From a virus: a stretch of 64,000 bases of DNA. Location of the stretch: positions 15,765 to 79,764 of IMG/VR virus record IMGVR_UViG_3300009103_002187. The stretch is one strand, 5' to 3'. Shown piece by piece: positions 5,602 to 22,620 of this stretch. How positions within the stretch are numbered: the first letter of the stretch is position 1; the number at the start of each line of letters is the position of its first letter. Below the pieces are notes generated by a model. It was not told the DNA's origin, made no database searches, and saw only the letters and a program-made list of their open reading frames with translations. A program made the position numbers and the translations under genes.

Positions 5602-8163
5602 TTAAGCTTCTCTTAAAATTGATCGCACTAATCTTCTTAAAGACTCGGCTGCTTGCTCTTCTTCAGGCTGAAACTCCTCAGGCGACAGATTTTCAGGCTG
5701 GGCAACTATAGGCTCTTCAATCTCTTCTGGCACCTCTTCTGGCGTGTCATCAACAGAAATTTCTAGAGGTGCAGTGGTTGTTGCTGTTGTAAATTCAGAC
5801 TTAACAATCGACTTCCAACCTCTCATGCCAAGGATCTGCGGCCCTGTGGACTTACCGTCATTTCGTGCTTTTAAACTAAAATATGGATTTCCAGACGGTC
5901 CCACATTTGCCTTAAGCGTTGTTCCATCGGTAATCCACTCAAATTTTAAATTATCTAAAAATCCCTTCGCCCCACCGATATTTTCAAGATCAAACTTTTC
6001 AATAATCACAGTGACTTCTTCTTTGCAGAGCCAACAAACCCGAAGAACAATAATCGTCTTTGGTGTCGATGAATCCTCTCGAGTTTCTCGACGGGGTCCA
6101 GCCCCAAGGAGATCTTTAGCCCCGGGTATTTTTCCATACATATCAGACCTTATATCAAAAAACGCTGCCATGATATCATCTTTAAATACCTCAGTAAAAG
6201 GTCTTCCGCTTAAAGTCGGTGGATCATGCTTTATTTCACCTATCTCGAGCTGCTCTCCGCTTAACAATTTTGCCAAATCCTCATAGGTCGGTTTCATTGC
6301 CTCTTGATAGGCCTCCTTAGCTAGATTAAATTTTCGGAAAATTGTATCAACCTTTTTCATCAAGTCGTCGATTTTCTCCTTGACTTCAGGATCTTTGACA
6401 GTGCTTATAAGGTTTGCGTACGCTCCTTTTGGATCTTTCCAGGAAATGTACTCTTTGTCTTTACCTCTTGGTGACCTCAGTTGAGGATCTTTCTCATCAG
6501 GTGGCAATCGATTCTTTCGATAAGTGTTGGCTTCTTGCACAGGGCCGTATATAAGATTTTTGATTCGGGTGACCTCCTCCTGTTGCTCAGAAGATAATTT
6601 TTTGAATTTTTCATTATTTTCTGTATAATAAGTCACATCTAAGAATTTTGCAATTTCCTCTCTTTGCGCTCCGGATTCCATGAGTCCGTCTCTGGCAAGA
6701 GTTCCTGCGGGTCGAACAAATCTGCCATCCATTTGATTTGCATCCACAGACCCACTCTCATCTCTAAGATAATCTGTTAGCTTATCTTTCATATGCAAAT
6801 CAAAAATAATTTTCGTTGCCTGATCATAGAGATCTCTAGAATAATATCCTGAAACAGCTCCAAAAATTTTATCTTCCAACTCTTCCGGAGTGGGCTCTTC
6901 CCGTTTTAATTTCCTAATATTCCCAAATCTTCCACCCTTTACCTCCTCGTTAAATTTTACGTGAATGTCTGAAATATCAGTTGGAACATCAACCATACCC
7001 GTATCTTGACCAATAGTTGTAATTAAAGGTCTACCAAGACCTTCTCGAAAAATTGGATTCTTTGTTACAGCTGTGTAAGCTGCTCGATATAAGGCAAATA
7101 TCGTCTTCCTTTCATCGTCAGACAAGCTAGGATCTGTAAAAATATTTTCTGCGTCAGGCGTGTCTTCAAAGGTACCCGGGACAGGTAGCTCACCATTACC
7201 CCCGCGAGGACTTCCTAAAAGCGCATCCAAAACTGAAAACTCCACAAGTTTTCCAATCTTGACCCCTTCACGACCGCCTGTCATATTGGGAAAACAAGGC
7301 TTGGGAGGTCTCTTACATTTTGTATTTGCCTCTTGAATTATGCGAGAGATATATTCTCTAATCAATCTGCTTGAAGTTTTATTTAGAACCTCATTCACTT
7401 TGTCAACTGCTTTTCGAGCATTCACAGGATCTCTCTTTAGCTTTGGACCAATATAGTCCTCAAAGTCAAAAAGATAATCCCTAAATGTTGAATGTGATGC
7501 CATATAATTAAGCAGCCCCTCGAAGGTCAAGACCATGTCAGGGTGAAGATTGATATCTAGCACCTCTAGGATCTTTGCAGGATCTTCAGTTCGAACTGTT
7601 TCTCGACCCTCCATCAAAAAAGTTTGGGGGTTTCCATCAACTCGAACCTGCAAGCCTCCCGGATAAGCGATCGCATATTTCACCTTGCGTTCAGTGGTGC
7701 ATGCTGCGTCACTCTTCTTCCGAGCGATCAGATTGATCAAGGCATTTCGATATGCTCCTTGAATCCCATTTTCATCAACACCTGCGAAAAGCCACGATGT
7801 GTGGTTAATATTTTCACCAGGCATGATGTCAACCTGAACATACTTTCCCGTGGGGCCTTCTGATAGATTAAAGATGGGATACTTCACGTGAATATTACTT
7901 CCCATCTTTCGAACATTTTCAGAACCCAGCGCTGTTGAAAGAAATCTTTCTAGTCTCTCCTTAAAGACAGGCTTGGAATCTCCCATGGGAATTTCAACAG
8001 TGATATCAGCATCTCTGCTGACCGTCTTCTTCCCTGTGCTTCCAATCATCCTATAGGTGTTAATACCTGCAGGGTGAAGATGATTTCTCAAAAAATGATC
8101 TAGCGTTGGCTTACAATCCTCTCGATTAATTCCAGAGGTTCCAACAAATATCGCGCCACCCAT
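5602..8163 (-). CDS. multidomain protein: N-terminal Pol-beta-like nucleotidyltransferase plus unknown C-terminal region
   Basis: IGSTGKK..SRDADI and YVQVDIM; internal LIREYISRIIQEA and terminal LRRLVRSILREA tags. Confidence 0.65.
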   Translation of the reverse strand: MGGAIFVGTSGINREDCKPTLDHFLRNHLHPAGINTYRMIGSTGKKTVSRDADITVEIPMGDSKPVFKERLERFLSTALGSENVRKMGSNIHVKYPIFNLSEGPTGKYVQVDIMPGENINHTSWLFAGVDENGIQGAYRNALINLIARKKSDAACTTERKVKYAIAYPGGLQVRVDGNPQTFLMEGRETVRTEDPAKILEVLDINLHPDMVLTFEGLLNYMASHSTFRDYLFDFEDYIGPKLKRDPVNARKAVDKVNEVLNKTSSRLIREYISRIIQEANTKCKRPPKPCFPNMTGGREGVKIGKLVEFSVLDALLGSPRGGNGELPVPGTFEDTPDAENIFTDPSLSDDERKTIFALYRAAYTAVTKNPIFREGLGRPLITTIGQDTGMVDVPTDISDIHVKFNEEVKGGRFGNIRKLKREEPTPEELEDKIFGAVSGYYSRDLYDQATKIIFDLHMKDKLTDYLRDESGSVDANQMDGRFVRPAGTLARDGLMESGAQREEIAKFLDVTYYTENNEKFKKLSSEQQEEVTRIKNLIYGPVQEANTYRKNRLPPDEKDPQLRSPRGKDKEYISWKDPKGAYANLISTVKDPEVKEKIDDLMKKVDTIFRKFNLAKEAYQEAMKPTYEDLAKLLSGEQLEIGEIKHDPPTLSGRPFTEVFKDDIMAAFFDIRSDMYGKIPGAKDLLGAGPRRETREDSSTPKTIIVLRVCWLCKEEVTVIIEKFDLENIGGAKGFLDNLKFEWITDGTTLKANVGPSGNPYFSLKARNDGKSTGPQILGMRGWKSIVKSEFTTATTTAPLEISVDDTPEEVPEEIEEPIVAQPENLSPEEFQPEEEQAAESLRRLVRSILREA

Positions 8164-8211
8164 ATCAATGACTCCGTCTATATGTTTTAATTATCTTGTA
8201 GATTACCCCTC

Positions 8212-9453
8212 TTACACAAGAGGGACAGAAATTTTTGCTGGAGTTTTACCGTACCTAAAAAACCCAAGGAGCTTATTGATCGGTGTAAACATTCCAGTTA
8301 GCTTACGTGTCTTTCCATTCCACTTAAAGACCACGCCTTCTGTGGCAGTCTCAAAGAGTGACTCGTTGGTCGCAAGCCTGGCAAGCGCAACTCGGATGCT
8401 TTCCAATTGATCCGGATTGGCCTCAATTCGATTCTCATCATATGCTTTTCGAATCTCCTGGACCCGATCAGTGATCTCCTTGTGATTACTCGCAGTAAGA
8501 CTAAACTCCAAGTTTCGAAAGGCATAAGTACCCACGCGTTGGATGATCTCCTCTAGAGGAATGATCGCTTCAGATACCGCTCGAGATCGACGAATCTCGA
8601 CCTCTTTAAACTGCTCCCAATTCTCAGGGGGTGCAACCTTTCGAAATTTCTTGTGCAAATTTCCTCGTCCAGTAGCTAGACGAACAGCGGTATCTTTGAT
8701 CAAAGACCGAGGAATAAATCGATACCTTTGATCAGTGGAGATGTGCTGTCGAACAAGCTCAACAACCAGGTCACGAATTGTGTGTGACCGACTCAATCGA
8801 GATGATCCCAGCAAAGCATCCAAGTCGTCAGTAAGGCTTGCAATTCGATCCTCGCCTTCAATCAAAATTTTCTTTACCTGTGCTTCAGGTGTGTGATCAA
8901 TCTTAAAATTATCAATCAGAACCTTGGCAGAGCTCACAAATTCCTCATAAAGCTTCACATCAGACTCGGACCCAGGAGCAACAGCTGCAACTTGAATGAA
9001 TCGAATCGAAGGCTCATCATAAGCAATGGTATTCGAGCTAGATGGGTGCAACAAGGCGGTCTCAATGAAGATCTTGCCGTCCTGAAAGAGATCTGAATAT
9101 TCGATCGCAACTGGCATCAAGGCCCGATAAGCCTCAGTAAATGCAGTTAGAATATGGGGGTTGTCAGCATACCTCATCTGAATGTCCACGAGATCCATGC
9201 CTCCTCCGGACAACAGACGTCGATAGGAGGCCCCTTTGCTGAGAAACTTCAAATTTCCCTGATGCACCGTAAAGGTTACATTTTGACCATCCATTTTCTC
9301 ATCTAGCTGTGTAAGCGATCCAAACAATGCTGCCTCGATCATCTGATACAGCTCACCGATCGGCATGTCCAGATCCTCATAAAAGTGATAGATGTGAGCA
9401 TCCAGTTTTTCTGGAATAGGCACTGTCTTACCTTGATACATTGGAACGATCAT
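8212..9453 (-). CDS. ATP-dependent ligase-like nucleotidyltransferase (DUF6267-like)
   Basis: HIYHFYED, EKMDG (motif I KxDG), EGVV (motif IV), KLTG (motif V). Confidence 0.65.
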   Translation of the reverse strand: MIVPMYQGKTVPIPEKLDAHIYHFYEDLDMPIGELYQMIEAALFGSLTQLDEKMDGQNVTFTVHQGNLKFLSKGASYRRLLSGGGMDLVDIQMRYADNPHILTAFTEAYRALMPVAIEYSDLFQDGKIFIETALLHPSSSNTIAYDEPSIRFIQVAAVAPGSESDVKLYEEFVSSAKVLIDNFKIDHTPEAQVKKILIEGEDRIASLTDDLDALLGSSRLSRSHTIRDLVVELVRQHISTDQRYRFIPRSLIKDTAVRLATGRGNLHKKFRKVAPPENWEQFKEVEIRRSRAVSEAIIPLEEIIQRVGTYAFRNLEFSLTASNHKEITDRVQEIRKAYDENRIEANPDQLESIRVALARLATNESLFETATEGVVFKWNGKTRKLTGMFTPINKLLGFFRYGKTPAKISVPLV

Positions 9454-10259
9454 CCTACTAGAATTCCCCCTACTATCTCTCGAAGCATTGCCTCTTGTGT
9501 GTTTCTTTTTAGCATTAAATCTAGCACGCGATCCTTATCCTCAGGCGTGTAAATCGCTGGGAGAAAATCGCGGACATTCTCTCGTTCCATCGTCCGAATT
9601 TGGCTTCCTCGCACAGTGATCTTTCTAATCATGTCAGCCTTAAGCTGTGGAGATAGATAAGGCAGCTCATCTCGATAAGCTGTTAGATCGCCGGACTCGA
9701 TGGCACACTGTGCTTTTAGAAGTCGATTCATGGTCTGATCTGGCTCCTGGCCCGAGTCCGTTCGAAACTCTCTGAGAATCGAGGTTCCCTCCAGGCGAGT
9801 GTAGATCTTTAGATCCTTTCTGCCTCCGTAAATTGTTAGACCCACATGAGTCGGATCCACATTTGGGATGTTAAATTGAGAAAGAACCTCACTTTTAGTC
9901 GTCCCATGATTGACCTCATCGATTACACCCCGGACTATCTGGAAGACGTCACCGATCGGTGTTGACTTACCTATCTCACCTGTGCTCTTTTTTGGGGGCC
10001 CTGGTAGAACAGGAAATCTCGCATAGACAAGCTTGGGCAATGTCTGTTTTAGCCGATAGGTGATCCCTGTCCACCCATCATGACCTTCCCACATCTTTTC
10101 CACTGCCTTGTCAGTGATCTCCACCCCGGCACCTTTCTTTCGACCTGCACCTCCAATGATCAGGATCACACCGTCATTTTCTCGATGTGCTAGGACAAGC
10201 TTGGCAAAATGGCCAGAGTGAAAGGGCTTAAAGCCTCCAGTAAAGATTCCAATATTCAT
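9450..10259 (-). CDS. HIGH-superfamily cytidylyltransferase-like protein
   Basis: GGFKPFHSGH motif; RGSQIR resembles the SxTxxR motif. Confidence 0.75.
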   Translation of the reverse strand: MNIGIFTGGFKPFHSGHFAKLVLAHRENDGVILIIGGAGRKKGAGVEITDKAVEKMWEGHDGWTGITYRLKQTLPKLVYARFPVLPGPPKKSTGEIGKSTPIGDVFQIVRGVIDEVNHGTTKSEVLSQFNIPNVDPTHVGLTIYGGRKDLKIYTRLEGTSILREFRTDSGQEPDQTMNRLLKAQCAIESGDLTAYRDELPYLSPQLKADMIRKITVRGSQIRTMERENVRDFLPAIYTPEDKDRVLDLMLKRNTQEAMLREIVGGILVG

Positions 10260-10903
10260 TCCTTCTCCTTGTTTTGATTTTCAATTAGTTGATATATCCT
10301 TGCCACCAATCCCGAAAGATTTTCCAAATTCAATCTTGCATCAATGGTTACCACATTGTCCTCGTCCACATCCAATTTACACCATCGATCCAAAAGTGTC
10401 AGAGGATCATCCAGTGGAAGTTGAGAGATCTTCTCAACTGAGACTGGTGTAAAGTCCCACATGTCCACACAAACATTTACTCTCTTTCCTGAAATTGGTC
10501 TTCCTGTGTGAATATGACCGTGAATTTGTAGATCATAGTTTGCAACCAGGTCGTGTGGCATAGGATAATGACAGATAAAAACTCGTCGATCATCAGGTAA
10601 CTGATAATCCAGTGCATAGTGAACTTCGTCAAATCCTGACTTCAACATCTTAGACACACTACTATCGTGATTTCCCTTGATCAAGATCTTTCTACCGTTC
10701 AACTGTTTTACTATCTCGGTGCCCTTTTGAGAACCACAAAGAAAAACATCACCAACGACATAGACTGTATCATCATTTGACACAGTTTTATTCCATCTCT
10801 TGATAATTTCATTGTTCATCTCATCAACTGTTTCAAAGGGCCTTCCGCAATACCTGATAATATTTTCATGACCAAAATGCATGTCTGAAGTAAAATAGTC
10901 CAT
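10256..10903 (-). CDS. calcineurin-like metallophosphoesterase
   Basis: SDMHFGH, GD, GNHD, HGHIH motifs. Confidence 0.9.
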   Translation of the reverse strand: MDYFTSDMHFGHENIIRYCGRPFETVDEMNNEIIKRWNKTVSNDDTVYVVGDVFLCGSQKGTEIVKQLNGRKILIKGNHDSSVSKMLKSGFDEVHYALDYQLPDDRRVFICHYPMPHDLVANYDLQIHGHIHTGRPISGKRVNVCVDMWDFTPVSVEKISQLPLDDPLTLLDRWCKLDVDEDNVVTIDARLNLENLSGLVARIYQLIENQNKEKE

Positions 10904-10908
10904 TGTTC

Positions 10909-11880
10909 CTACAAAAAAGACAGATAAACTCTGCCTCTAACAGCTTGATTCAAGGCATGAAGATAATCTAGCTTTTTCTTTGACGCTCCAAATTTTTTCT
11001 TCTTTTCAATTGATTTATCAAGACGATTGCTAAAATCATTGTATAGATCATGCAAAAATATATCAGCATAATCAATCACTTTGGCGTCAGCGAGAGTTCT
11101 AGATAGACCATTAATTCCTTTTGCAAGATCATCTAGATCAATAGCATCAGGATTAACACCAGGGTTCTCTGTAAGCAATCTGTTCCTTGGCGTTCCACCT
11201 TCCAATAGATAGTTTGCGATGTCAGTCAAGAAGCTTCTAGGATTAACAGAGATCATTTCTAAATCAAAATTCTTTCGACACCTCGTTGAAACTCTTTTTC
11301 CTTTTCGAACTTTTGCAGTCACACCCTCTGTTCCAATGCTTATCGTAAGTGCTGCACCCAGTGCCGCATAAAGATTACCCATGATGTAACCTTTCAATCC
11401 CCTCTCGGGACAGTATCTCGCCCGCATCCAATCTTGATAACGAGGGAATGTCATCACCATGTCAACCTGAACATATCTTTCATCAGGTAGTTTCATAATT
11501 GCCATAGTTGGAGATGATCGCAACGTCTCTATGATGTCAACAATCTCAGGCTTGCGCTCCTCAACAAACTTAGCAAAGTCTGATTCATACGCAGCTTTAA
11601 TTCGATTTTCTTCTTTGCGCCTCTCCCACTCTGTTCCTTGAAAATCTCGAGGAAAAGGAAGACTAACTAGATAGTCAACATCACCGTATGCAACATCATT
11701 GCGCTCCTCAAAGTCTATCATGCTATAAGCTGATGATCCCACAGCCTGGAGAGGACAAATCTCTGCCTCCCTAAGCTCTCGCCAATCATAAATCAGCTTC
11801 TTATATAGACTAATAGACTCTAGCGCGATCGACGGCGTGATGACAGTCGTCCGCGTCTTTTGTGATTTCAAACCACCCAT
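10909..11880 (-). CDS. Pol-beta-like nucleotidyltransferase
   Basis: VGSS...YGDVDYLV and YVQVDMV; resembles the N-domain of 5602..8163. Confidence 0.7.
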   Translation of the reverse strand: MGGLKSQKTRTTVITPSIALESISLYKKLIYDWRELREAEICPLQAVGSSAYSMIDFEERNDVAYGDVDYLVSLPFPRDFQGTEWERRKEENRIKAAYESDFAKFVEERKPEIVDIIETLRSSPTMAIMKLPDERYVQVDMVMTFPRYQDWMRARYCPERGLKGYIMGNLYAALGAALTISIGTEGVTAKVRKGKRVSTRCRKNFDLEMISVNPRSFLTDIANYLLEGGTPRNRLLTENPGVNPDAIDLDDLAKGINGLSRTLADAKVIDYADIFLHDLYNDFSNRLDKSIEKKKKFGASKKKLDYLHALNQAVRGRVYLSFL

Positions 11881-11896
11881 ATCTCACCTTATGATC

Positions 11897-11924
11897 ATTA
11901 TACCACATGATCAAGAGGTTTACA
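11897..11924 (-). promoter_or_regulatory. putative early/middle promoter TGTAAA-N16-TATAAT
   Basis: same motif and spacing at 35406-35433 and 62704-62731. Confidence 0.65.
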
Positions 11925-12215
11925 TTAAAAATCGGATTCTTCTATCAAACCTTTATTGACGCCAGCTCTTAGTGCCTTTTTTCTAAGAAATCGAAGACTT
12001 TCTAAACATCGAGTAATCCGATCTCTTTCTTTTCTATCTCTCTGGGGTAACTGGTGTCGGATCGACTTCAACTCTGTGATAATCTTATCATAATCATCTA
12101 CGTGTGCAGAAGAACCAAATTCCACCTCTGAGCCTTCAAAGGTATGATATCTTCGCTCTCTAGACTCATTAATAACACTCTGAATCAGAGTTCTCAAATC
12201 TTTTTTCGATAACAT
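11925..12215 (-). CDS. small tag-bearing hypothetical protein
   Basis: MLSKKDLRTLIQSVINES; ATAATTA at 12235-12241. Confidence 0.7.
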   Translation of the reverse strand: MLSKKDLRTLIQSVINESRERRYHTFEGSEVEFGSSAHVDDYDKIITELKSIRHQLPQRDRKERDRITRCLESLRFLRKKALRAGVNKGLIEESDF

Positions 12216-12828: not shown

Positions 12829-13542
12829 TTATGATCTTAAGATTGACAGCTCTCTCCGAACAGCTTCTTTCTGCTGGGACTCTCCCACCTTAATCGGAAC
12901 TGGTGGAGAGGTATCTTCTTTTCCCGGGCTCTTTGAAGCTGCCTTTTTTGTAGGTGCTGACTTACTTTTAGCAACCTTCTTCTCTCTCTTCTTGGGATCA
13001 GGTGCTGAGACCTTTGTCTGGGATGTCATCTCAATTCGTCCAGGTTTGTCATCGGGTTGGGGAACAGAATTGCCATCTGCACCTGCTGTCACAATATTCT
13101 TAATTGAATTTAAAAACTTGTAAAGTGCAATTCTCTCAGGCTCATCCATGTCTTCATAATACTCGATTAACTCCATCTTAATATCAGAATCTTTCAATGA
13201 TCGCCCTGATCGGATATCATTGATTAGATCACGAATATCATTAAACTTAATCTCCTCGGGCATGTTATCAACAGGCTTCTGTTCCGGAGATGCTTCTTGT
13301 TTCTCAGGCTCAGGAGATGCCTGTTCAACATCCTCTTCGCGAACATCTGACTCTGACTCCCGATGAGGGCTGTCAACTTGGCCAGAAATCTTTTTTGACA
13401 TCGCCATTTGATCTTGACGTGCAGATGTGTAATCATCTTCAGGAACGTCAATGGCACTTTTTGCCCTAGAAACAGACTCCTCAGCAATTAATCTGAGAAA
13501 AGTCTCGAGATTTCGCTTAGAAGTAATTTTTATCTTTTTCAT
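12829..13542 (-). CDS. tag-bearing hypothetical (putative head) protein
   Basis: MKKIKITSKRNLETFLRLIAEE; terminal EAVRRELSIL. Confidence 0.7.
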   Translation of the reverse strand: MKKIKITSKRNLETFLRLIAEESVSRAKSAIDVPEDDYTSARQDQMAMSKKISGQVDSPHRESESDVREEDVEQASPEPEKQEASPEQKPVDNMPEEIKFNDIRDLINDIRSGRSLKDSDIKMELIEYYEDMDEPERIALYKFLNSIKNIVTAGADGNSVPQPDDKPGRIEMTSQTKVSAPDPKKREKKVAKSKSAPTKKAASKSPGKEDTSPPVPIKVGESQQKEAVRRELSILRS

Positions 13543-13763: not shown

Positions 13764-14150
13764 TTATTTATCTTGTTCATAAAGAAGTGTTATGTCAACA
13801 GCAGCTTCTTCATCTCCGTGCATCACATTTACTTCAAATTTAGAATCTGACGCATTAATCTCTTCAATTATCTCTCGGCCAGTTCCTAAGATTTTTACAG
13901 TATGAAAAGTTTCACCAAGGATAAAAGGCCGTGTGTCTTCCTTTGTTGTTAAGCTTAGAGTTCTCGATTGATCTTTGTTTACAATTCCTGACAACGCACC
14001 TGAAATAGTCACATTGTCAAATAAGACCTCACACGAGTAAACTGCCTGTTTTGATTCTTCGCCCATTAACAATTCAGGAGTGATCCTATCTGTTAAAGAA
14101 TCACTCATAATCAAAACGTCGTTATCTGCACCTTCAATCTTAAAACTCAC
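13764..14150 (-). CDS. hypothetical protein
   Basis: 128-aa ORF in operon. Confidence 0.65.
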   Translation of the reverse strand: MSFKIEGADNDVLIMSDSLTDRITPELLMGEESKQAVYSCEVLFDNVTISGALSGIVNKDQSRTLSLTTKEDTRPFILGETFHTVKILGTGREIIEEINASDSKFEVNVMHGDEEAAVDITLLYEQDK

Positions 14151-14577
14151 GCTCTTTCCTTTTATTCAAAATTAATTTTCTAGTTTGAATTACATCACTA
14201 TAAATTTGATCAACAGATTTTGAGTATTCTAAATCTAGCTCAGTAACCTCATCTAAATCGTGTGTATACACCTCGACCCTAACAACATCTGAGTCAATTT
14301 GCAAAAATCCGTGGTGATCAGTCTCATCTTGATGCTCAAGAACAAATGCAACAAACTTACGAAGATCTTTGTAAAATTTAAACTTAAAAGATCTTCTAAT
14401 CCTATTGGGTGACTCTAACATTTCCCATTTGGACTCTCCAACCTGTAAAGGCAGGCCGTTATCTACTTCTTCTTTAGAATATGCACCGAAAGTCTTAAGT
14501 ACTATCTCAGAAGAATCTGATGATTCAAATAAACCGTTATTCTTGAATATTCTTGATACTGTTCTATTCTTAAGCAT
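14140..14577 (-). CDS. phhB: pterin-4-alpha-carbinolamine dehydratase-like protein
   Basis: W...I.RSFKF..Y....FV, DHH, YTHD and VTELD motifs. Confidence 0.8.
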   Translation of the reverse strand: MLKNRTVSRIFKNNGLFESSDSSEIVLKTFGAYSKEEVDNGLPLQVGESKWEMLESPNRIRRSFKFKFYKDLRKFVAFVLEHQDETDHHGFLQIDSDVVRVEVYTHDLDEVTELDLEYSKSVDQIYSDVIQTRKLILNKRKEREF

Positions 14578-15952
14578 TCTTAGCGCCGCGCCCTTGTTTT
14601 GCGTATAACTTGTCAAGCTTATTACCAAATGCGCCTTTCAAGATTTTAGCAACAACTTGATCTGGTATCAGATGATATTGATCAATCACATCTTGCAAGA
14701 TCAAGCCTTGTATGGGATTGTTTGTGCTGTGAGGTCGCTTGACTCTCTTTCCATGCTTTTTTGGGCTGGCAAATGTGTGCCACTTTGCCTGAAGATGCCT
14801 TGCATCCTTTATCTCCTTATCGTACATCTCCTTGTAGAGGCCTTGCGCAAACAGCTTAAAAGCAGCCAAATAAGCTGAATGATCTGGGCCTTTCCCCACC
14901 TTGAGATCGCTTAATCCTGTCTTGCCGCCATCGGGTAATACTTCCTCTACAGCTGGGTTTATTCCTATCACAAGATCTCTAAAGATCGTAAATGTTACAG
15001 CCTCAATATTATGCGCAGTTCCAAATTTTTCCATATCATATACAATAGGTAGCTTTTTACCAGGTGGGGGCAGATCTCCCAAGAGCTTTAGGTCGTCGTA
15101 GATAATATTTCGAACATTATTGAGACCCGTTCCAATCTCTTGCGCAATGAGCTTAATTAAATCTCCTAAATTCATTCTTCTAACAATGTCTGGCGTTAGC
15201 TTTTCAGCGCCCAGCTCAGCAGACACATGATTAGCCAAGGCTACCCCTGTCGCTTCCTCAACAGGGTTTAGATCGTATTCATGACCGGGTGGCAAGTCTT
15301 CTATATTACCCCTGGCCTCACCACTGTCCCCTTCAGCAGCTCCTGGGTCATCAAGATCAGACAAGTCTTCTGACCCTGGCGTGTATGATCCAAGCGCCTC
15401 CAAGGCTTCAGGATCCTGCTCTGCTGCCATGATCTCTTCATGGGATGGGGCACCCCATTCATCCTCGTCTTTTTTCTTGTCTTTCCATCGATGTTGAGAT
15501 CCCATGGGCTCGTCACCCCACCTTGCACCGGGTCGCCATTCTGGATCACCTGGCTGTGGAATCATCCCAGGGCCGACTTCGATCAAAATCTTTCGAATTG
15601 CTGCTCGAAGATGGGATTCATTTTGATTCTTTTGTCTGGCTCTTTTTCTAGCATTTCTTGCCACTCGTTTTACCTGTCGCTTAACCTTGTCAGACTCATC
15701 CTCAGGTACCTGAGATAAAACAGATATTAAAGATTGAACTAGCTCATCTTCACTAGACAGCGGGTCACCTCCCAAACTGGGCTTCTCTTTCGCCTTTTTA
15801 AGGGGTTGAACATCCATAGTTTCATCAGGTTGCACGGGTGGTTCATTTATGACTCTCGGCGCTGATTTGTCACCGGTACTTTTTTCCTTCCCCGCGTCCA
15901 AAAATTCCTGAATAATTTGGCGTACGGCACTCTTTTTAACAACTACTTTCAT
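14570..15952 (-). CDS. tag-bearing hypothetical (putative head) protein
   Basis: MKVVVKKSAVRQIIQE and NESHLRAAIRKILIE; ATATTTA at 15987-15993. Confidence 0.7.
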   Translation of the reverse strand: MKVVVKKSAVRQIIQEFLDAGKEKSTGDKSAPRVINEPPVQPDETMDVQPLKKAKEKPSLGGDPLSSEDELVQSLISVLSQVPEDESDKVKRQVKRVARNARKRARQKNQNESHLRAAIRKILIEVGPGMIPQPGDPEWRPGARWGDEPMGSQHRWKDKKKDEDEWGAPSHEEIMAAEQDPEALEALGSYTPGSEDLSDLDDPGAAEGDSGEARGNIEDLPPGHEYDLNPVEEATGVALANHVSAELGAEKLTPDIVRRMNLGDLIKLIAQEIGTGLNNVRNIIYDDLKLLGDLPPPGKKLPIVYDMEKFGTAHNIEAVTFTIFRDLVIGINPAVEEVLPDGGKTGLSDLKVGKGPDHSAYLAAFKLFAQGLYKEMYDKEIKDARHLQAKWHTFASPKKHGKRVKRPHSTNNPIQGLILQDVIDQYHLIPDQVVAKILKGAFGNKLDKLYAKQGRGAKNA

Positions 15953-16022: not shown

Positions 16023-16493
16023 CTAATCTATTTGTCCCAATGTCCATCCCGCAGCAGCAGTCACCAAGACGCCTCCTACTATGCCTAAGCCAAACCACAA
16101 ACCATTATCAGGCCTAGAAGACTTTAAAAGCTGATCATTTAGAAATTCGATTTGTCCATTTTTAATCTCAAGGATATCACTATGCATCGTTTGACACGAA
16201 GTCAATGATGCTGCTATCGAATCAATCTCAAGCTGCATCTGTGCTGACTGAAGACCTATCTGCCTATCAATCTCAAGCTGGCACGTTTCTTGTGTATACT
16301 CTAAGTCAATCACCAACTGTGCTGCAGCTTCCACACTAAAAAGTGTACCTGAAAATGGGGCTGCGTCTCCCTCATCTAACGTCACAATCGATGCTCCATC
16401 CCACGTAGGTGGATCAGCTAATACTGGTGCAGCAACTAAAAATGAGCAAAGGTATAAGCTTAAAACCTTGCACCAGATGTTATCAAATCTCAT
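16023..16493 (-). CDS. envelope protein (signal peptide, coiled coil, C-terminal TM), spanin-like candidate
   Basis: N-terminal signal ending VLA-D; C-terminal LWFGLGIVGGVLVTAAAGW. Confidence 0.6.
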   Translation of the reverse strand: MRFDNIWCKVLSLYLCSFLVAAPVLADPPTWDGASIVTLDEGDAAPFSGTLFSVEAAAQLVIDLEYTQETCQLEIDRQIGLQSAQMQLEIDSIAASLTSCQTMHSDILEIKNGQIEFLNDQLLKSSRPDNGLWFGLGIVGGVLVTAAAGWTLGQID

Positions 16494-16544
16494 TATTACC
16501 TCACAAATCAATAAATTATTCTATCTTTGTGAGATTACGTTAAA

Positions 16545-21446: not shown

Positions 21447-22145
21447 CTATTTTAAAGCTTTGGCAATCTTGTCAGCTCTCTTGAAACGCTCATCAATCAC
21501 ACCCCAGTCAAGCTCTTTCATCATAGCATAAATATACGTCTTGCGGTTATTAATATAATCCCTATAATAAGAATGCTCCCAGCAATCTAAGACGATGACA
21601 GGATAAAAACCTGCAGGAAGATTGGAATTATGCAAGTCAACAATACAGTTCACATATGTCTGTAAAAATGTGCTAAACCCGGTCACCACCCAACCATTTC
21701 TTGCAGAAAGTGCACAGGCAATAAAATCCTTCTGCCATCGATCAAATGTTCCAAAGTCTCTCTCTATTCTCATAAATGCGAGAGAATCCATGTTAACCTG
21801 ACTGCGAACATCGCTGATATTAGCAAAGAAGAGCTCGTGCAAGTGAACAGCGTTGAGGTTATAAACCTCATCGATCTTAAGTGATCGATACTGGGAGTGA
21901 TTTAGGCTCGCAGCTTCGCGATCAACAGCATCAAGCTCAGCGCTAATCCGATTCAAAGTTTTAACATACTTCTCATAAAGCGTTTTGTGTGCCTTTTTAT
22001 TCTTCGCACTGAGTAGCTCAGTGGGAAGATCAAATTCCTTGATCTGTGCCACATAGGCCTCATTTAGAGTTTTTTCAGTTTCAGAATCAAGACCTAAGCT
22101 TTCTCTCACCAGGTCTCTAATATCGCCATTTTTTAAACTATCCAT
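21447..22145 (-). CDS. sod: Fe/Mn superoxide dismutase with N-terminal tag
   Basis: H...Y..YV..LN, HLHELFF, DCWEHSYY; N-terminal IRDLVRESL...LNE. Confidence 0.88.
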   Translation of the reverse strand: MDSLKNGDIRDLVRESLGLDSETEKTLNEAYVAQIKEFDLPTELLSAKNKKAHKTLYEKYVKTLNRISAELDAVDREAASLNHSQYRSLKIDEVYNLNAVHLHELFFANISDVRSQVNMDSLAFMRIERDFGTFDRWQKDFIACALSARNGWVVTGFSTFLQTYVNCIVDLHNSNLPAGFYPVIVLDCWEHSYYRDYINNRKTYIYAMMKELDWGVIDERFKRADKIAKALK

Positions 22146-22155
22146 AATTTATAAC

Positions 22156-22620
22156 CTATGTGTCAACTGTATAACGCTGGGAAAGCTCATCTTTGCTCAC
22201 CTCAAAGTCCTTCACGTCACCTGGGCTTCGATCCAGATCTTCTCGGCCAGGAATTGAAGCATCTCGGCCGGTAGCGTCTTTCTCAGGAAGATCATAACCT
22301 CGAAGAACAACCGCGTGACGCTTACTAGGATCAGCGTTTGCATCAATTTGATTTCCCTGGGCATCCAAAAAGCTCACAACTGTGTAAAGCAATTTGGAGT
22401 CATCATCATCTGACTTCTTGCTAGGGTGTTGTTTTAACTTACTCTCGATTCCCAAATCCAATATGTTTACCTCAACTGGGCCTTTTGCCTTATTGTCATC
22501 ATCCTTTGAATCATGATCATCCTCAGACTCATGATGTGCCTCAGTGAGAAATCGTCTAAGCTTTCTCTCATACTGCTCTCTCATCATATTGATGATCTCA
22601 GCTTCAGTTAAAACGGACAT
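22156..22620 (-). CDS. tag-bearing hypothetical protein
   Basis: ERKLRRFLTE; TGATG coupling with the upstream gene. Confidence 0.65.
   Translation of the reverse strand: MSVLTEAEIINMMREQYERKLRRFLTEAHHESEDDHDSKDDDNKAKGPVEVNILDLGIESKLKQHPSKKSDDDDSKLLYTVVSFLDAQGNQIDANADPSKRHAVVLRGYDLPEKDATGRDASIPGREDLDRSPGDVKDFEVSKDELSQRYTVDT

What the first reader, a model, noticed from the sequence alone, without database searches (positions are those of the whole stretch)
5602..11924. Five-gene nucleotidyl-transfer operon (NTase, phosphoesterase, HIGH transferase, ligase-like, NTase fusion)
Seen: behind one promoter (11897-11924), five closely spaced genes (the first four overlapping or 5 nt apart) cover three unrelated nucleotidyltransferase folds (Pol-beta GS..DxD..D twice, HIGH HSGH, ligase KxDG) plus a metallophosphoesterase. 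Two members carry the tag. Established: ligase plus phosphoesterase combinations heal and seal RNA; Pol-beta NTases also make nucleotide signals or AMPylate proteins; HIGH enzymes include NMN adenylyltransferases. Inference: an uncharacterised counter-defence pathway (RNA repair, NAD or second-messenger manipulation, or protein nucleotidylation).
Basis: partly seen in the sequence, partly recalled or inferred. Interest (0 to 1): 0.78.

Follow-up and report, generated by a model that had tools for sequence, protein, structure and literature searches.

The report
Phage three-nucleotidyltransferase break-repair cassette
A fragment of an uncultured jumbo phage carries a conserved set of enzymes (two DNA-polymerase-X-like enzymes, a phosphoesterase, an NMNAT/PPAT-like adenylyltransferase and an RNA-ligase-like enzyme) that related phages fuse into single polyproteins; it most likely mends broken nucleic-acid ends, in a combination I did not find described.

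Summary

- **g1 (323 aa):** models with confidence (pLDDT 92) as a family-X DNA polymerase palm plus thumb (Z about 10), not a generic Pol-beta NTase. The first ~265 residues of g5 (g5N) are a distant paralogue.
- **g2:** an intact calcineurin-type phosphoesterase of a very common phage family.
- **g3:** a PPAT/NMNAT-type adenylyltransferase.
- **g4:** an RNA-ligase-type adenylyltransferase with no OB domain and a large helical insert.

**Linkage is strong.** The order g1-g2-g3-g4-g5N recurs in IMG/VR jumbo-phage contigs. Relatives fuse g3+g4, g4+g5N and g3+g4+g5N. The HIGH-ligase fusion persists in distant phages (Microcystis phage Mel-JY01, a 484-kb megaphage).

**Processing.** Junctions before the PolX-like domain always read [LI]xE|GG. 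This fits the T4-type prohead protease that three related contigs encode, so the proteins are probably processed virion cargo.

**Best reading (about 0.5):** a heal-fill-seal repair kit for broken RNA or DNA ends. The substrate and the role of the HIGH enzyme are unresolved. The C-terminal 570 aa of g5 is an orphan passenger.

New variant of a known kind. The scan noted this stretch before, but only on this same genome.

The parts
10909..11880 (-). g1: 323-aa PolX-like nucleotidyltransferase (palm plus thumb, then a C-terminal helical hairpin). It starts MGG.
   Evidence: The AF2 model has pLDDT 92. VIA-wide gives Z 10.5 to Pol beta 142-335 and 10.2 to ASFV PolX, and the nine best hits are all family X. 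Foldseek puts Pol lambda and Pol beta on top. G48, S49, D67, D69 and D140 are invariant in 23 homologues. No Pfam, PHROG, NCBIfam or PDB sequence hit was found.
10256..10903 (-). g2: 215-aa calcineurin-like metallophosphoesterase with a ~55-aa C-terminal extension.
   Evidence: PF00149 scores 28.2 bits against a cut-off of 21.5. phrog_547 matches at E 1.7e-52. The nearest NCBIfam model is PdeM TIGR04123, at 26 bits, far below its cut-off of 150. The core of residues 1-160 is found in 2137 phage records.
9450..10259 (-). g3: 269-aa PPAT/NMNAT-type (HxGH) adenylyltransferase with a C-terminal tag-like helix (9453-9494).
   Evidence: The family profile hits only PPAT, NMNAT and NaMNAT chains in the PDB, with a best E of 1.4e-7. 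G8, F10, P12, H17 and R222 are invariant. PF01467 scores over its cut-off in fused homologues.
8212..9453 (-). g4: 413-aa RNA-ligase-type covalent nucleotidyltransferase. Motif I is KMDGQN, motifs IV and V are EGVVFKW and GKTRKLTG. It has a helical insert at ~190-360 and no OB domain.
   Evidence: The AF2 model has pLDDT 86. VIA gives Z 8.4 to NgrRnl, 8.0 to Trl1, 7.7 to Rnl2 and 7.5 to Rnl1, with DNA ligases mostly lower (ASFV ligase 7.2, others 4.8-6.5). The best Foldseek hits are RNA ligases. PF09414 matches g4 itself at E 0.008 and reaches its cut-off in homologue P0035.
7369..8163 (-). g5N: N-terminal ~265 aa of g5, a second PolX-like NTase. It starts MGG and carries GSTGKK..DxD..VQVD.
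   Evidence: hhalign against the g1 family gives probability 70%, E 4e-5. PF14792 DNA_pol_B_palm matches below threshold in 3 of 10 family members and in the L016 homologue. In relatives it is fused to the C-terminus of g4.
7309..7368 (-). Tag-like amphipathic linker inside g5 (residues ~266-285).
   Evidence: The stand-alone g5C homologues P0026-28 begin here. The same kind of helix forms the linkers and C-termini in relatives.
5602..7308 (-). g5C: C-terminal ~570 aa of g5, an orphan passenger domain with a C-terminal tag-like helix.
   Evidence: Only 4 hits were found among 1.84 billion representatives. It is absent from the related loci. The ESM Atlas gave no usable hit.
11881..11924 (-). 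Intergenic region upstream of g1, with an extended -10 (TGGTATAAT, 11897-11905) and an SD.
   Evidence: This is a consensus match only.
8164..8211 (-). g4-g5 spacer, with ATAATTA (8188-8194) and a GGAG SD.
   Evidence: ATANTTA is not enriched window-wide: 38 found against 43.8 expected.

Best explanation
The block encodes a nucleic-acid break-repair ('heal, fill, seal') enzyme set of an uncultured jumbo phage.

Proposed roles, all inferred:
- g2, the metallophosphoesterase, removes 3'-phosphate or 2',3'-cyclic phosphate (or other blocking groups) from broken ends.
- The two PolX-like enzymes, g1 and g5N, add nucleotides to the 3'-OH.
- g4, the RNA-ligase-type enzyme, seals the break through a lysyl-AMP intermediate at the KMDG lysine.
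- g3, the PPAT/NMNAT-type adenylyltransferase, works directly with the ligase. It is the ligase's most constant partner. It may supply or regenerate its nucleotide cofactor, or it may add AMP to or remove AMP from a 5'-phosphate end. That chemistry is the same as NMN + ATP = NAD + PPi.

In relatives the HIGH, ligase and PolX-like parts are made as one polyprotein. Its junctions ([LI]xE|GG) fit a T4-type prohead protease. The enzymes are therefore probably packaged, cut in the capsid and delivered with the DNA.

Shown here: the folds, the catalytic motifs, co-conservation, the fusions and the junction motif.
Inferred: the order of the steps, the packaging and the substrate.

My odds within this reading are roughly 55:45 for RNA (cleaved tRNA or RNA, the RlaP-plus-ligase logic) against duplex DNA or DNA with ribonucleotide patches (the PolX-plus-ligase, LigD-like logic).
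For: - **Folds.** g1 is family-X palm plus thumb. g4 is an RNA ligase. g3 is PPAT/NMNAT-type. g2 is an intact metallophosphoesterase.
- **Catalytic residues** are invariant across the families.
- **Gene order.** g1-g2-g3-g4-g5N is kept in 8 IMG/VR loci and g3-g4-g5N in 17, at 24-47% identity.
- **Fusions.** g3+g4 occurs in P0035/37/40/42, L018/L019 and Mel-JY01, and in LR756508 and L021/22/26, where it is shown by g4 homology plus a CTP_transf_like hit. g4+g5N occurs in P0029/36/39/41/56 and in L004, L006, L012, L015, L016, L020 and L025. The triple fusion occurs in L005, L011, L013, L014 and L017.
- **Distant locus L026.** A Pol-beta NTase (NTP_transf_2, E 5e-4) sits just upstream of the HIGH-ligase fusion.
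- **ESM Atlas leads.** Viral clusters join CTP_transf_like with DNA_pol_B_palm, and a PolX-like domain with PDDEXK.
- **g1 and g2 travel together.** g2 is never seen without g1 in these loci. This echoes bacterial PolX with its fused phosphoesterase domain (PMC2566882).
- **Precedents.** RNA-ligase-associated Pol-beta NTases (RlaP) add 1-2 NMP to damaged RNA before ligation (PMC7824862; bioRxiv 10.64898/2025.12.29.696909). A viral PolX-ligase fusion carries out gap filling and sealing (PMC5537341).
- **Junctions.** Every junction before the GG start is [LI]xE. Peptidase_S77 (T4 gp21-type) is encoded in three related contigs.
Against: - No polynucleotide 5'-kinase is in the block or in the 80-kb contig. 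The contig is only 27% of the genome.
- No Ku.
- No tRNA genes in the window.
- In this phage clade, tag-linked polyproteins also join unrelated enzymes. g5N carries variable passengers, and g5C is an orphan. Fusion may therefore partly reflect co-packaging rather than one pathway.
- Synteny extends over the whole region. Gene order among the close relatives is therefore not independent evidence.
- g2 belongs to a generic phage family found in 2137 phage records.
- No role for a HIGH-type enzyme in any known repair pathway turned up in the papers I could read.
- No biochemical or expression data exist.
Confidence: 0.5

Rival explanations
1. The block is a DNA-specific, virion-delivered end-repair or end-joining kit, working like NHEJ or BER. 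PolX-like gap filling (possibly with rNMPs), phosphoesterase end cleaning and sealing of 3'-ribo nicks by an Rnl-type ligase would protect or recircularise the injected genome after restriction or exonuclease attack. This is the DNA branch of the best explanation, stated here on its own.
For: - The best structural neighbours of g1 are DNA polymerases beta, lambda and mu, TdT and ASFV PolX, and the match includes the thumb that reads a duplex.
- Giant-virus PolX proteins appear among the BFVD hits.
- The nearest named subfamily for g2 is the ligase-associated DNA-damage phosphoesterase PdeM.
- The PgV PolX-ligase fusion performs BER (PMC5537341).
- A g1-like domain is fused to ParB/Srx in a 1096-aa phage protein, and ParB_N precedes HIGH-ligase in LR756508.
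- The ESM Atlas shows an archaeal cluster (57 members, 93% with PDDEXK_1) whose models resemble g5N (TM 0.72).
- The likely capsid delivery suits a DNA-protecting role, as with the P1 Dar proteins (PMC5512222).
Against: - g4 has no OB domain, and RNA ligases rank above most DNA ligases (ASFV ligase at Z 7.2 overlaps the RNA-ligase range).
- Motif I is KxDGxN, which to my knowledge is typical of RNA ligases.
- No Ku.
- No 8-kDa dRP-lyase or HhH domain is present in g1 or g5N (the model begins at the palm).
- The PdeM match is far below its cut-off.
Confidence: 0.22
2. The block serves nucleotide-cofactor metabolism or counter-defence. g3 would be a true NMN adenylyltransferase that rebuilds NAD+ (or makes another ADP-linked metabolite) against NAD-depleting defences. 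The other enzymes would process nucleotide derivatives rather than polymer ends.
For: - The best named matches of g3 are NMNAT and PPAT.
- A related distant contig (G005) that carries the HIGH-ligase fusion also encodes a NAMPT-family enzyme.
- Phage NAD+ pathways are known (PMC9503650).
Against: - Only the N-terminal ~45-80 residues of g3 match NMNAT or PPAT. Scores are far below every NMNAT equivalog cut-off, for example 23.6 against 341.
- No NAMPT is present in the window's contig or in three other related contigs searched (G001-G003; not the whole close clade).
- Constant fusion to an RNA-ligase-type and a PolX-like enzyme is not explained by NAD salvage.
Confidence: 0.1
3. The Pol-beta-fold enzymes make nucleotide second messengers or decoys, or they nucleotidylate proteins (AMPylation).
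For: OAS1, CdnC and a cGAS-like receptor appear as weaker structural neighbours of the g1 palm, with Z 6.8-7.7 over 113-132 residues aligned.
Against: - Family-X polymerases score clearly higher and over more residues, with Z 10.5 over 182-186 aligned residues including the thumb.
- No CD-NTase or other signalling family was hit by sequence.
- The tight link to a ligase and an end-healing phosphoesterase is not explained.
Confidence: 0.06
4. There is no shared pathway. The genes are neighbours, and are fused in relatives, only because they are co-packaged cargo concatenated with tag linkers, each acting on its own target.
For: - g5N is joined to unrelated, variable C-terminal passengers.
- The whole region is syntenic in the clade.
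- An earlier first-stage note (e1-6088128, unchecked) describes another tag-linked polyprotein of unrelated enzymes in this genome.
Against: - The HIGH-ligase pair persists in distant phages that otherwise lack the detectable partners and neighbours.
- The triad recurs in different arrangements: HIGH+ligase, ligase+PolX-like, HIGH+PolX-like in ESM Atlas clusters, and a separate NTase next to HIGH-ligase in L026.
Confidence: 0.12

Closest known systems
RlaP (PF10127) plus RNA ligase repair modules of phages and bacteria (T4 NrdC.11; Pseudomonas RtcB operons)
   Same: A Pol-beta-superfamily NTase is genomically coupled to an RNA ligase and end-healing phosphoesterases. RlaP adds 1-2 NMP to damaged RNA 3' ends before ligation (PMC7824862; bioRxiv 10.64898/2025.12.29.696909).
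   Different: - g1 and g5N do not match PF10127.
- Their second domain is a PolX-type thumb, not the RlaP helical domain.
- No kinase is present.
- A HIGH-type adenylyltransferase is fused.
- The proteins are made as polyproteins.
Phaeocystis globosa virus PolX-ligase fusion; ASFV PolX plus ligase (viral base excision repair)
   Same: A minimal viral family-X polymerase is coupled, and in PgV fused, to a ligase for gap filling and sealing (PMC5537341). ASFV PolX aligns with g1 over 167 of its 176 modelled residues, Z 10.2.
   Different: - The ligase here is RNA-ligase-type without an OB domain, not an NAD+-dependent or ATP-dependent DNA ligase.
- There is no dRP-lyase domain.
- These are phage proteins, not NCLDV proteins.
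- Sequence similarity to PolX is at or below Pfam thresholds.
Bacterial LigD (POL + phosphoesterase + LIG) and bacterial PolX with its PHP domain
   Same: The same three activities appear in one functional unit: polymerase, 3'-end phosphoesterase and ligase. In bacterial PolX, the polymerase is paired with a phosphoesterase (PMC2566882, PMC7072297).
   Different: All three folds differ from LigD: PolX-like rather than primase-polymerase, calcineurin-like rather than LigD-PE, and Rnl-type rather than a DNA ligase with OB. No Ku was found.
Clostridium thermocellum Pnkp / T4 Pnkp-Rnl1 heal-and-seal RNA repair
   Same: A phosphoesterase is coupled to an RNA-ligase-type adenylyltransferase. To my knowledge the phosphoesterase of CthPnkp is calcineurin-type.
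   Different: There is no P-loop 5'-kinase domain and no Hen1. Two PolX-like NTases and a HIGH enzyme are present in addition.
Polyvalent, capsid-packaged phage proteins (Iyer et al. 2017, PMC5512222)
   Same: Several unrelated enzymatic domains sit in one polypeptide, are probably processed and are injected with the DNA. ParB/Srx partners are seen in relatives.
   Different: Processing appears to rely on prohead-protease-type [LI]xE sites rather than an in-built zincin peptidase. In the passages of that paper that I searched, RNA ligases appeared only as not associating with the polyvalent-protein 2H domains.

Membership tests
Family X DNA polymerase (PolX) | Pol-beta palm with hG[GS]...DxD...D on the canonical strands | tested here: met
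   g1 has G48, S49, D67, D69 and D140, invariant in 23 sequences and lying at strand-helix and strand positions of the model. g5N has GSTGKK-x4-DxD with the same 10-residue spacing as Pol beta (my knowledge), plus VQVD.
Family X DNA polymerase (PolX) | Palm plus C-terminal (thumb) subdomain fold | tested here: met
   g1 model residues 6-249 align to Pol beta 142-335 (Z 10.5, 182-186 residues aligned, rmsd 3.6-4.0). ASFV PolX gives Z 10.2, and Pol lambda, TthPolX, TdT and Pol mu follow. The next tier (GLD-2, OAS1) reaches Z 8 or less and covers the palm only. g5N was not modelled. It is linked to g1 only by hhalign at probability 70%.
Family X DNA polymerase (PolX) | Pfam PolX models over threshold (PF14792 and others) | tested here: not met
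   The g1 family has no hit. The g5N family gives PF14792 below threshold in 3 of 10 members, with a best E of 0.005. A six-frame search of the contig found nothing.
Family X DNA polymerase (PolX) | 8-kDa dRP-lyase and HhH 'fingers' domains | tested here: not met
   The g1 model starts at the palm after one N-terminal helix. ASFV PolX also lacks these domains.
Family X DNA polymerase (PolX) | Template-directed DNA synthesis | not testable with these tools
   This needs primer-extension assays.
RlaP (PF10127) | Match to the PF10127 model | tested here: not met
   No hit for g1, for g5, or for 23 g1-family and 10 g5N-family members at E up to 1. There is none in the contig, while a true RlaP is found in the distant contig G005.
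RlaP (PF10127) | Genomic coupling to an RNA ligase | tested here: met
   g5N is adjacent to g4 or fused to it in 17 related loci, and g1 lies within the same block.
RNA ligase / covalent nucleotidyltransferase superfamily (PF09414) | Motif I lysine (KxDG) and motifs III, IIIa, IV and V | tested here: met
   EKMDGQN, VVIE, NPNTIVY, EGxVFxW and GKTRKLTG are invariant or nearly so in 27 sequences.
RNA ligase / covalent nucleotidyltransferase superfamily (PF09414) | Adenylyltransferase fold | tested here: met
   VIA gives Z 8.4 to NgrRnl, 8.0 to Trl1-LIG, 7.7 to T4 Rnl2 and 7.5 to T4 Rnl1, and all ten best hits are ligases. The best Foldseek hits are Rnl3 and Rnl1. The Z values are modest because of the ~170-aa helical insert.
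RNA ligase / covalent nucleotidyltransferase superfamily (PF09414) | Pfam score over the gathering cut-off | tested here: inconclusive
   g4 itself scores 16.8 bits against a cut-off of 27. Homologue P0035 scores 28.4 and P0040 scores 26.4.
ATP-dependent DNA ligase / capping enzyme | OB-fold domain after the nucleotidyltransferase domain | tested here: not met
   The g4 model ends about 30 residues after motif V. It has no OB domain, and the DNA ligases align only over their NTase domain at Z 4.8-7.2.
Cytidylyltransferase-like HIGH superfamily (PF01467; PPAT/NMNAT) | GxFxPx[HT]xGH and downstream [ST]xxxR motifs | tested here: met
   G8, F10, P12, H17 and R222 are invariant in 16 sequences.
Cytidylyltransferase-like HIGH superfamily (PF01467; PPAT/NMNAT) | Profile match | tested here: met
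   The family profile hits PPAT at E 1.4e-7 and NadM at 8e-7, and more than 50 hits are PPAT, NMNAT or NaMNAT. PF01467 scores over its cut-off in LR756508 (35.3 bits), L021 (23.7) and Mel-JY01 (21.1). g3 itself gives no Pfam hit.
NMN adenylyltransferase (NadR/NadM equivalogs) | Full-length match over the NCBIfam cut-off | tested here: not met
   TIGR01526 scores 23.6 bits against a cut-off of 341, and only residues 1-46 align.
Calcineurin-like metallophosphoesterase (PF00149) | Model over the cut-off and five metal-binding motifs | tested here: met
   28.2 bits against a cut-off of 21.5. DxH, GD, GNHD, H and GHxH are read in the sequence.
PdeM (TIGR04123, ligase-associated phosphoesterase) | Equivalog score | tested here: not met
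   26.3 bits against a cut-off of 150. It is only the nearest named subfamily.
Capsid-packaged, protease-processed cargo | Protease-type junctions and a matching protease in the clade | tested here: met
   [LI]xE|GG precedes the mature start in all 13 g1 homologues that carry an N-terminal extension. It also does so in all 7 g4-g5N fusions of A3 and in 4 of the 5 polyproteins inspected. Peptidase_S77 is over its cut-off in 3 related contigs. It was not found in the window's own 27%-complete contig.
Capsid-packaged, protease-processed cargo | Presence and cleavage in virions | not testable with these tools
   This needs virion mass spectrometry.

The most novel reading that the evidence does not exclude
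The cassette is a self-contained, virion-delivered break-repair machine with two unprecedented features.

1. A split ligation chemistry. The PPAT/NMNAT-type enzyme would adenylylate a 5'-phosphate nucleic-acid end, or de-adenylylate it by pyrophosphorolysis. Alternatively it would make the AMP donor on the spot for an RNA-ligase-type sealing enzyme.

2. PolX-like enzymes whose invariant Gly-Gly N-terminus must be exposed, by methionine removal or by prohead-protease cleavage at [LI]xE|GG, because the free amino terminus takes part in catalysis. It could, for example, act as a lyase nucleophile, as in T4 endonuclease V or Fpg.
Probability: 0.12. Interest if true: 0.85.

Novelty: new variant of a known kind. 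Interest (0 to 1): 0.6.

Why it matters
- **Phage repair enzymes.** Heal-and-seal systems are the founding examples of RNA repair and remain a source of enzymes for molecular biology. The triad here (HIGH adenylyltransferase, Rnl-type ligase and minimal PolX-like enzyme, with a phosphoesterase) recurs, often as one polyprotein. It is found in uncultured, largely marine jumbo-phage contigs and reaches a cyanophage and a 484-kb megaphage. No family model names three of the five proteins.
- **If it repairs RNA.** It would show a PolX-type fold doing the job assigned to RlaP.
- **If it repairs DNA.** It would be a phage counterpart of LigD or of viral BER, built from different folds and perhaps injected with the genome.
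- **Either way.** The constant HIGH-ligase pairing points to an undescribed step in ligation chemistry or cofactor supply. The [LI]xE|GG junctions give a testable handle on cargo processing in this phage clade.

Tried and rejected
- **Nucleotide and tblastn searches of 50,697 phage records.** These gave nothing for the block or for g5, and only two distant hits for g4.
- **Sequence searches for g1 and g5.** Single-sequence searches of g1 and g5, and a g1-family profile search against the PDB, found nothing. The g5N-family profile gave only summed repeat artefacts with designed PPR proteins, which I disregarded.
- **g5C.** An exhaustive HMMER search gave 4 hits, and the ESM Atlas gave none. It is unrelated by HMM to the extra C-terminal domains of relatives. 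My impression that those extra domains in L013 and L016 carry a PD-(D/E)xK-like motif got no Pfam support and is only a lead.
- **BLASTP of g1 against g5.** Not significant. Only the profile-profile comparison links them.
- **DUF6267 (ESM Atlas lead).** No match in the contig, and no paper mentions it.
- **Prokaryotic genomes.** A scan of 185,579 species gave one hit, on a Tara MAG contig. There is therefore no cellular context to learn from.
- **Other partners.** Ku, an AAA_33 kinase and NAMPT are absent from the contig, which is 27% complete, so this is weak evidence.
- **ATAnTTA as a promoter motif.** It is not enriched in the window.
Contexts came from the search for related loci instead.
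- **Burroughs & Aravind 2016 (NAR, RNA repair systems)** is not held.
- **No structure was predicted for g3, g5N or g5C**, because the cap was two jobs.

Full report
**Setting.** The window is bases 15765-79764 of a 79.8-kb linear IMG/VR contig. CheckV estimates it at 27% complete, which implies a jumbo phage of roughly 300 kb. Nearly all genes lie on the minus strand. No cultured phage shares nucleotide similarity with the block.

**Observation.** Five minus-strand ORFs fill 5602-11880:
- g1, 10909-11880
- g2, 10256-10903
- g3, 9450-10259
- g4, 8212-9453
- g5, 5602-8163

The spacing is 5 nt, a 4-nt overlap, a 4-nt overlap and 48 nt. They are conserved in family alignments.

Upstream of g1 there is a perfect extended -10 (TGGTATAAT, 11897-11905) and a Shine-Dalgarno sequence. 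TGNTATAAT is only mildly over-represented, with 6 found against 2.7 expected. The next gene upstream is co-directional and 44 nt away. 'One promoter' is therefore plausible but not shown.

g5 is preceded by its own spacer with ATAATTA and GGAG. That heptamer is not enriched in the window.

**g1.** Pfam, PHROGs, NCBIfam and the PDB give nothing by sequence, even with a 23-member profile.
- An AlphaFold2 model built on that alignment is confident (pLDDT 92, pTM 0.89).
- Foldseek places Pol lambda and Pol beta on top.
- An exhaustive VIA-align search of 48,161 chains gives family-X polymerases for all nine best hits. These are Pol beta residues 142-335 (Z 10.5, 182-186 aligned), Leishmania Pol beta, ASFV PolX (Z 10.2, 167 of its 176 modelled residues), Pol lambda, Thermus PolX, TdT and Pol mu.
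- Other Pol-beta-superfamily enzymes (GLD-2, OAS1, TUT7, CdnC) reach Z 8 or less and match the palm only.
- In BFVD the neighbours are uncharacterised phage proteins and giant-virus family-X polymerases. The best is a 1096-aa phage protein annotated ParB/Sulfiredoxin that contains a g1-like domain.

g1 is therefore a minimal PolX-like enzyme (palm plus thumb) with an added C-terminal helical hairpin.

**g5.** BLAST splits g5 into two parts.
- Residues 2-272 (g5N) are homologous to the C-terminal domain of ~695-aa proteins whose N-terminal 420 aa are g4 homologues.
- Residues ~266-801 (g5C) are homologous to stand-alone 566-aa proteins that begin with the tag-like helix.

g5N carries GSTGKK-x4-DxD and VQVD. 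To my knowledge, this pattern and spacing are those of Pol beta and Pol lambda. Its family aligns with the g1 family by hhalign at probability 70%, E 4e-5. PF14792 (DNA polymerase beta palm) is the only Pfam family hit by several of its members: 3 of 10, below threshold.

ESM Atlas leads show that g5N-like domains are widespread in phages. They are sometimes joined to CTP_transf_like domains, and an archaeal cluster of PDDEXK_1 proteins has structurally similar models.

g5C is an orphan. It has four hits among 1.84 billion representatives and nothing in the Atlas, and it is absent from the related loci.

**g2.** It passes the Pfam Metallophos cut-off and matches phrog_547 at E 2e-52. All five metal-binding motifs are intact. 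The nearest NCBIfam model is the ligase-associated phosphoesterase PdeM, but far below its cut-off. The catalytic core occurs in 2137 phage records of many kinds, so by itself it says little.

**g3.** The N-terminus matches NadR/NadM NMNAT. A 16-member family profile hits only PPAT, NMNAT and NaMNAT chains, with a best E of 1.4e-7. The GxFxPx[H/T]xGH motif and a downstream Arg of an SxxxR motif are invariant. It is a HIGH-type adenylyltransferase, but it is not a recognisable NMNAT orthologue.

**g4.**
- Pfam RNA_ligase is sub-threshold in g4 and reaches the cut-off in a homologue.
- The model (pLDDT 86) matches RNA ligases best: NgrRnl 8.4, Trl1 8.0, Rnl2 7.7, Rnl1 7.5, REL1 and Rnl3. Apart from ASFV ligase (Z 7.2), DNA ligases and capping enzymes score lower.
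- Motifs I, III, IIIa, IV and V are conserved.
- A ~170-aa helical insert separates motif IIIa from motif IV.
- There is no OB domain.

**Linkage.** A pattern scan of IMG/VR with the g4 family gave 23 loci.
- tblastn and ORF maps show g1-g2-g3-g4-g5N in the same order in eight loci, and g3-g4-g5N in seventeen.
- g4+g5N(+extra domain) fusions occur in seven loci.
- Triple g3+g4+g5N fusions occur in five.
- g3+g4 fusions occur in two more loci (L018/L019), in four database proteins and in Mel-JY01. In the 484-kb phage LR756508 and in L021/L022/L026 the same fusion is shown by g4 homology plus a CTP_transf_like match.
- In the most distant locus (L026), a separate Pol-beta NTase (NTP_transf_2, E 5e-4) lies just upstream of the HIGH-ligase gene.
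- g2 occurs only together with g1.

Two cautions apply. First, the close relatives are syntenic over the whole region, so gene order there is not independent evidence. Second, in this clade polyproteins also carry unrelated passengers.

The family is essentially confined to phages. It has one hit, on a Tara MAG contig, among 185,579 prokaryotic species.

**Processing.** In every homologue with sequence upstream of the PolX-like domain, the domain begins GG and is preceded by [LI]xE. This holds for:
- thirteen g1 homologues that carry N-terminal extensions;
- seven g4-g5N fusions;
- four polyproteins from the loci, while L025 has LSE|SG.

In the window, both g1 and g5 start MGG. Three related contigs encode a T4 gp21-type prohead protease, Peptidase_S77, at E 1e-26 to 1e-29. 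To my knowledge, that enzyme cuts after Glu in L/I-x-E sites.

Stand-alone g3 and many g5N proteins end in an amphipathic helix...LRxxIRGIIRG. In fused forms the same helix is the linker. This agrees with the earlier first-stage notes on a recurrent tag. It suggests capsid targeting and cleavage, but packaging has not been shown.

**Interpretation.** The set combines an end-healing phosphoesterase, 3'-end nucleotide addition and sealing. It has precedents on both substrates.
- On RNA: phage and bacterial RNA ligases are accompanied by RlaP Pol-beta NTases, which add one or two nucleotides to damaged RNA (PMC7824862; bioRxiv 10.64898/2025.12.29.696909). They are also accompanied by phosphoesterases, including calcineurin-like ones (PMC9503650).
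- On DNA: viral PolX is coupled or fused to a ligase for gap repair (PMC5537341), and LigD and bacterial PolX combine the same activities (PMC2566882, PMC7072297).

The ligase fold and the missing OB domain point to RNA, or to 3'-ribo nicks. The PolX thumb, the ParB/Srx and PDDEXK partners, and the likely delivery with the DNA point to duplex DNA. I cannot decide between them. My odds are about 55:45 within a 0.5 overall confidence for repair.

The HIGH enzyme is the ligase's most constant partner, and its role is unexplained. Its family chemistry (NTP + R-phosphate gives NDP-R + PPi) equals 5'-adenylylation of a phosphate end. That makes cofactor supply, end activation and reversal of abortive adenylylation all conceivable.

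A kinase and Ku were not found, but all the contigs are fragments. A true RlaP and a NAMPT occur in the distant contig G005, which has only the HIGH-ligase fusion.

**Novelty.** I found no description of a HIGH-Rnl-PolX-like triad or polyprotein in the searchable literature. Three of the five proteins have no family model. The logic is that of known repair modules, so I rate it a new variant of a known kind.

The same stretch was noted before in this scan, but only on this same genome.

Noticed in passing
window 10909-11880 and 5602-8163; homologues P0005-P0023, P0029-P0041; L004, L005, L013, L016: The PolX-like domains always begin Gly-Gly. They start either directly after the initiator Met or after an [LI]xE junction, and no exception was seen apart from L025 (SG). 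GG is conserved even where no cleavage is needed, which suggests that the free N-terminus matters for function.
   Followed up: partly
window 9453-9494, 7309-7368, 5605-5646; L004-L025 g3 and g5N C-termini: Stand-alone g3 and g5N proteins end in an amphipathic helix, ...LRxxIRGIIRG-COOH. The same helix forms the inter-domain linker in fused forms. g2 may carry a weaker copy (LVARIYQLIENQ, near its C-terminus).
   Followed up: partly
P0005, P0008, P0010, P0012, P0015-P0017, P0019, P0021, P0022 (g1 homologues): A conserved ~100-aa N-terminal propeptide (tag helix, then ...YGS...LRKGP.R.KHRKEMHRLQDAIGAIRYLK...) precedes the LAE|GG site in many g1 homologues. It is absent from the window's g1.
   Followed up: no
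L013:12107-13393, L016:12146-13504 (C-terminal ~430 aa of the polyproteins): The extra C-terminal domains after the PolX-like domain contain a string that looks like PD-(D/E)xK (SDVYVP...GIEVKL). There was no Pfam hit. An ESM Atlas cluster of archaeal PDDEXK_1 proteins has models structurally similar to g5N.
   Followed up: partly
L002 (LR756508.1) 6477-9221; BFVD A0A6J5TD12: ParB/Srx-type domains are joined to the module in other phages. A weak ParB_N match precedes HIGH-ligase in the 915-aa megaphage ORF, and a 1096-aa phage protein annotated ParB/Sulfiredoxin contains a g1-like domain.
   Followed up: no
window 8168-8410 (+): An 80-aa plus-strand ORF gives tblastn hits in 16 related loci. 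It lies antisense to the most conserved C-terminal part of g4, so it is a shadow of that conservation and not a gene.
   Followed up: partly
G005 (contig of L022) 21791-22522 and 94530-95075: A distant phage that has only the HIGH-ligase fusion also encodes a NAMPT-family enzyme (E 4e-54) and a true RlaP (28.7 bits, over the cut-off), about 12 kb from the fusion gene.
   Followed up: no
window 11925-12215, 12829-13542, 14140-14628, 16023-16511, 21447-22145: Genes flanking the block, including the superoxide dismutase at 21447-22145, have homologues in the same order in 10-14 related contigs. The whole region is a syntenic core of this uncultured phage clade.
   Followed up: partly
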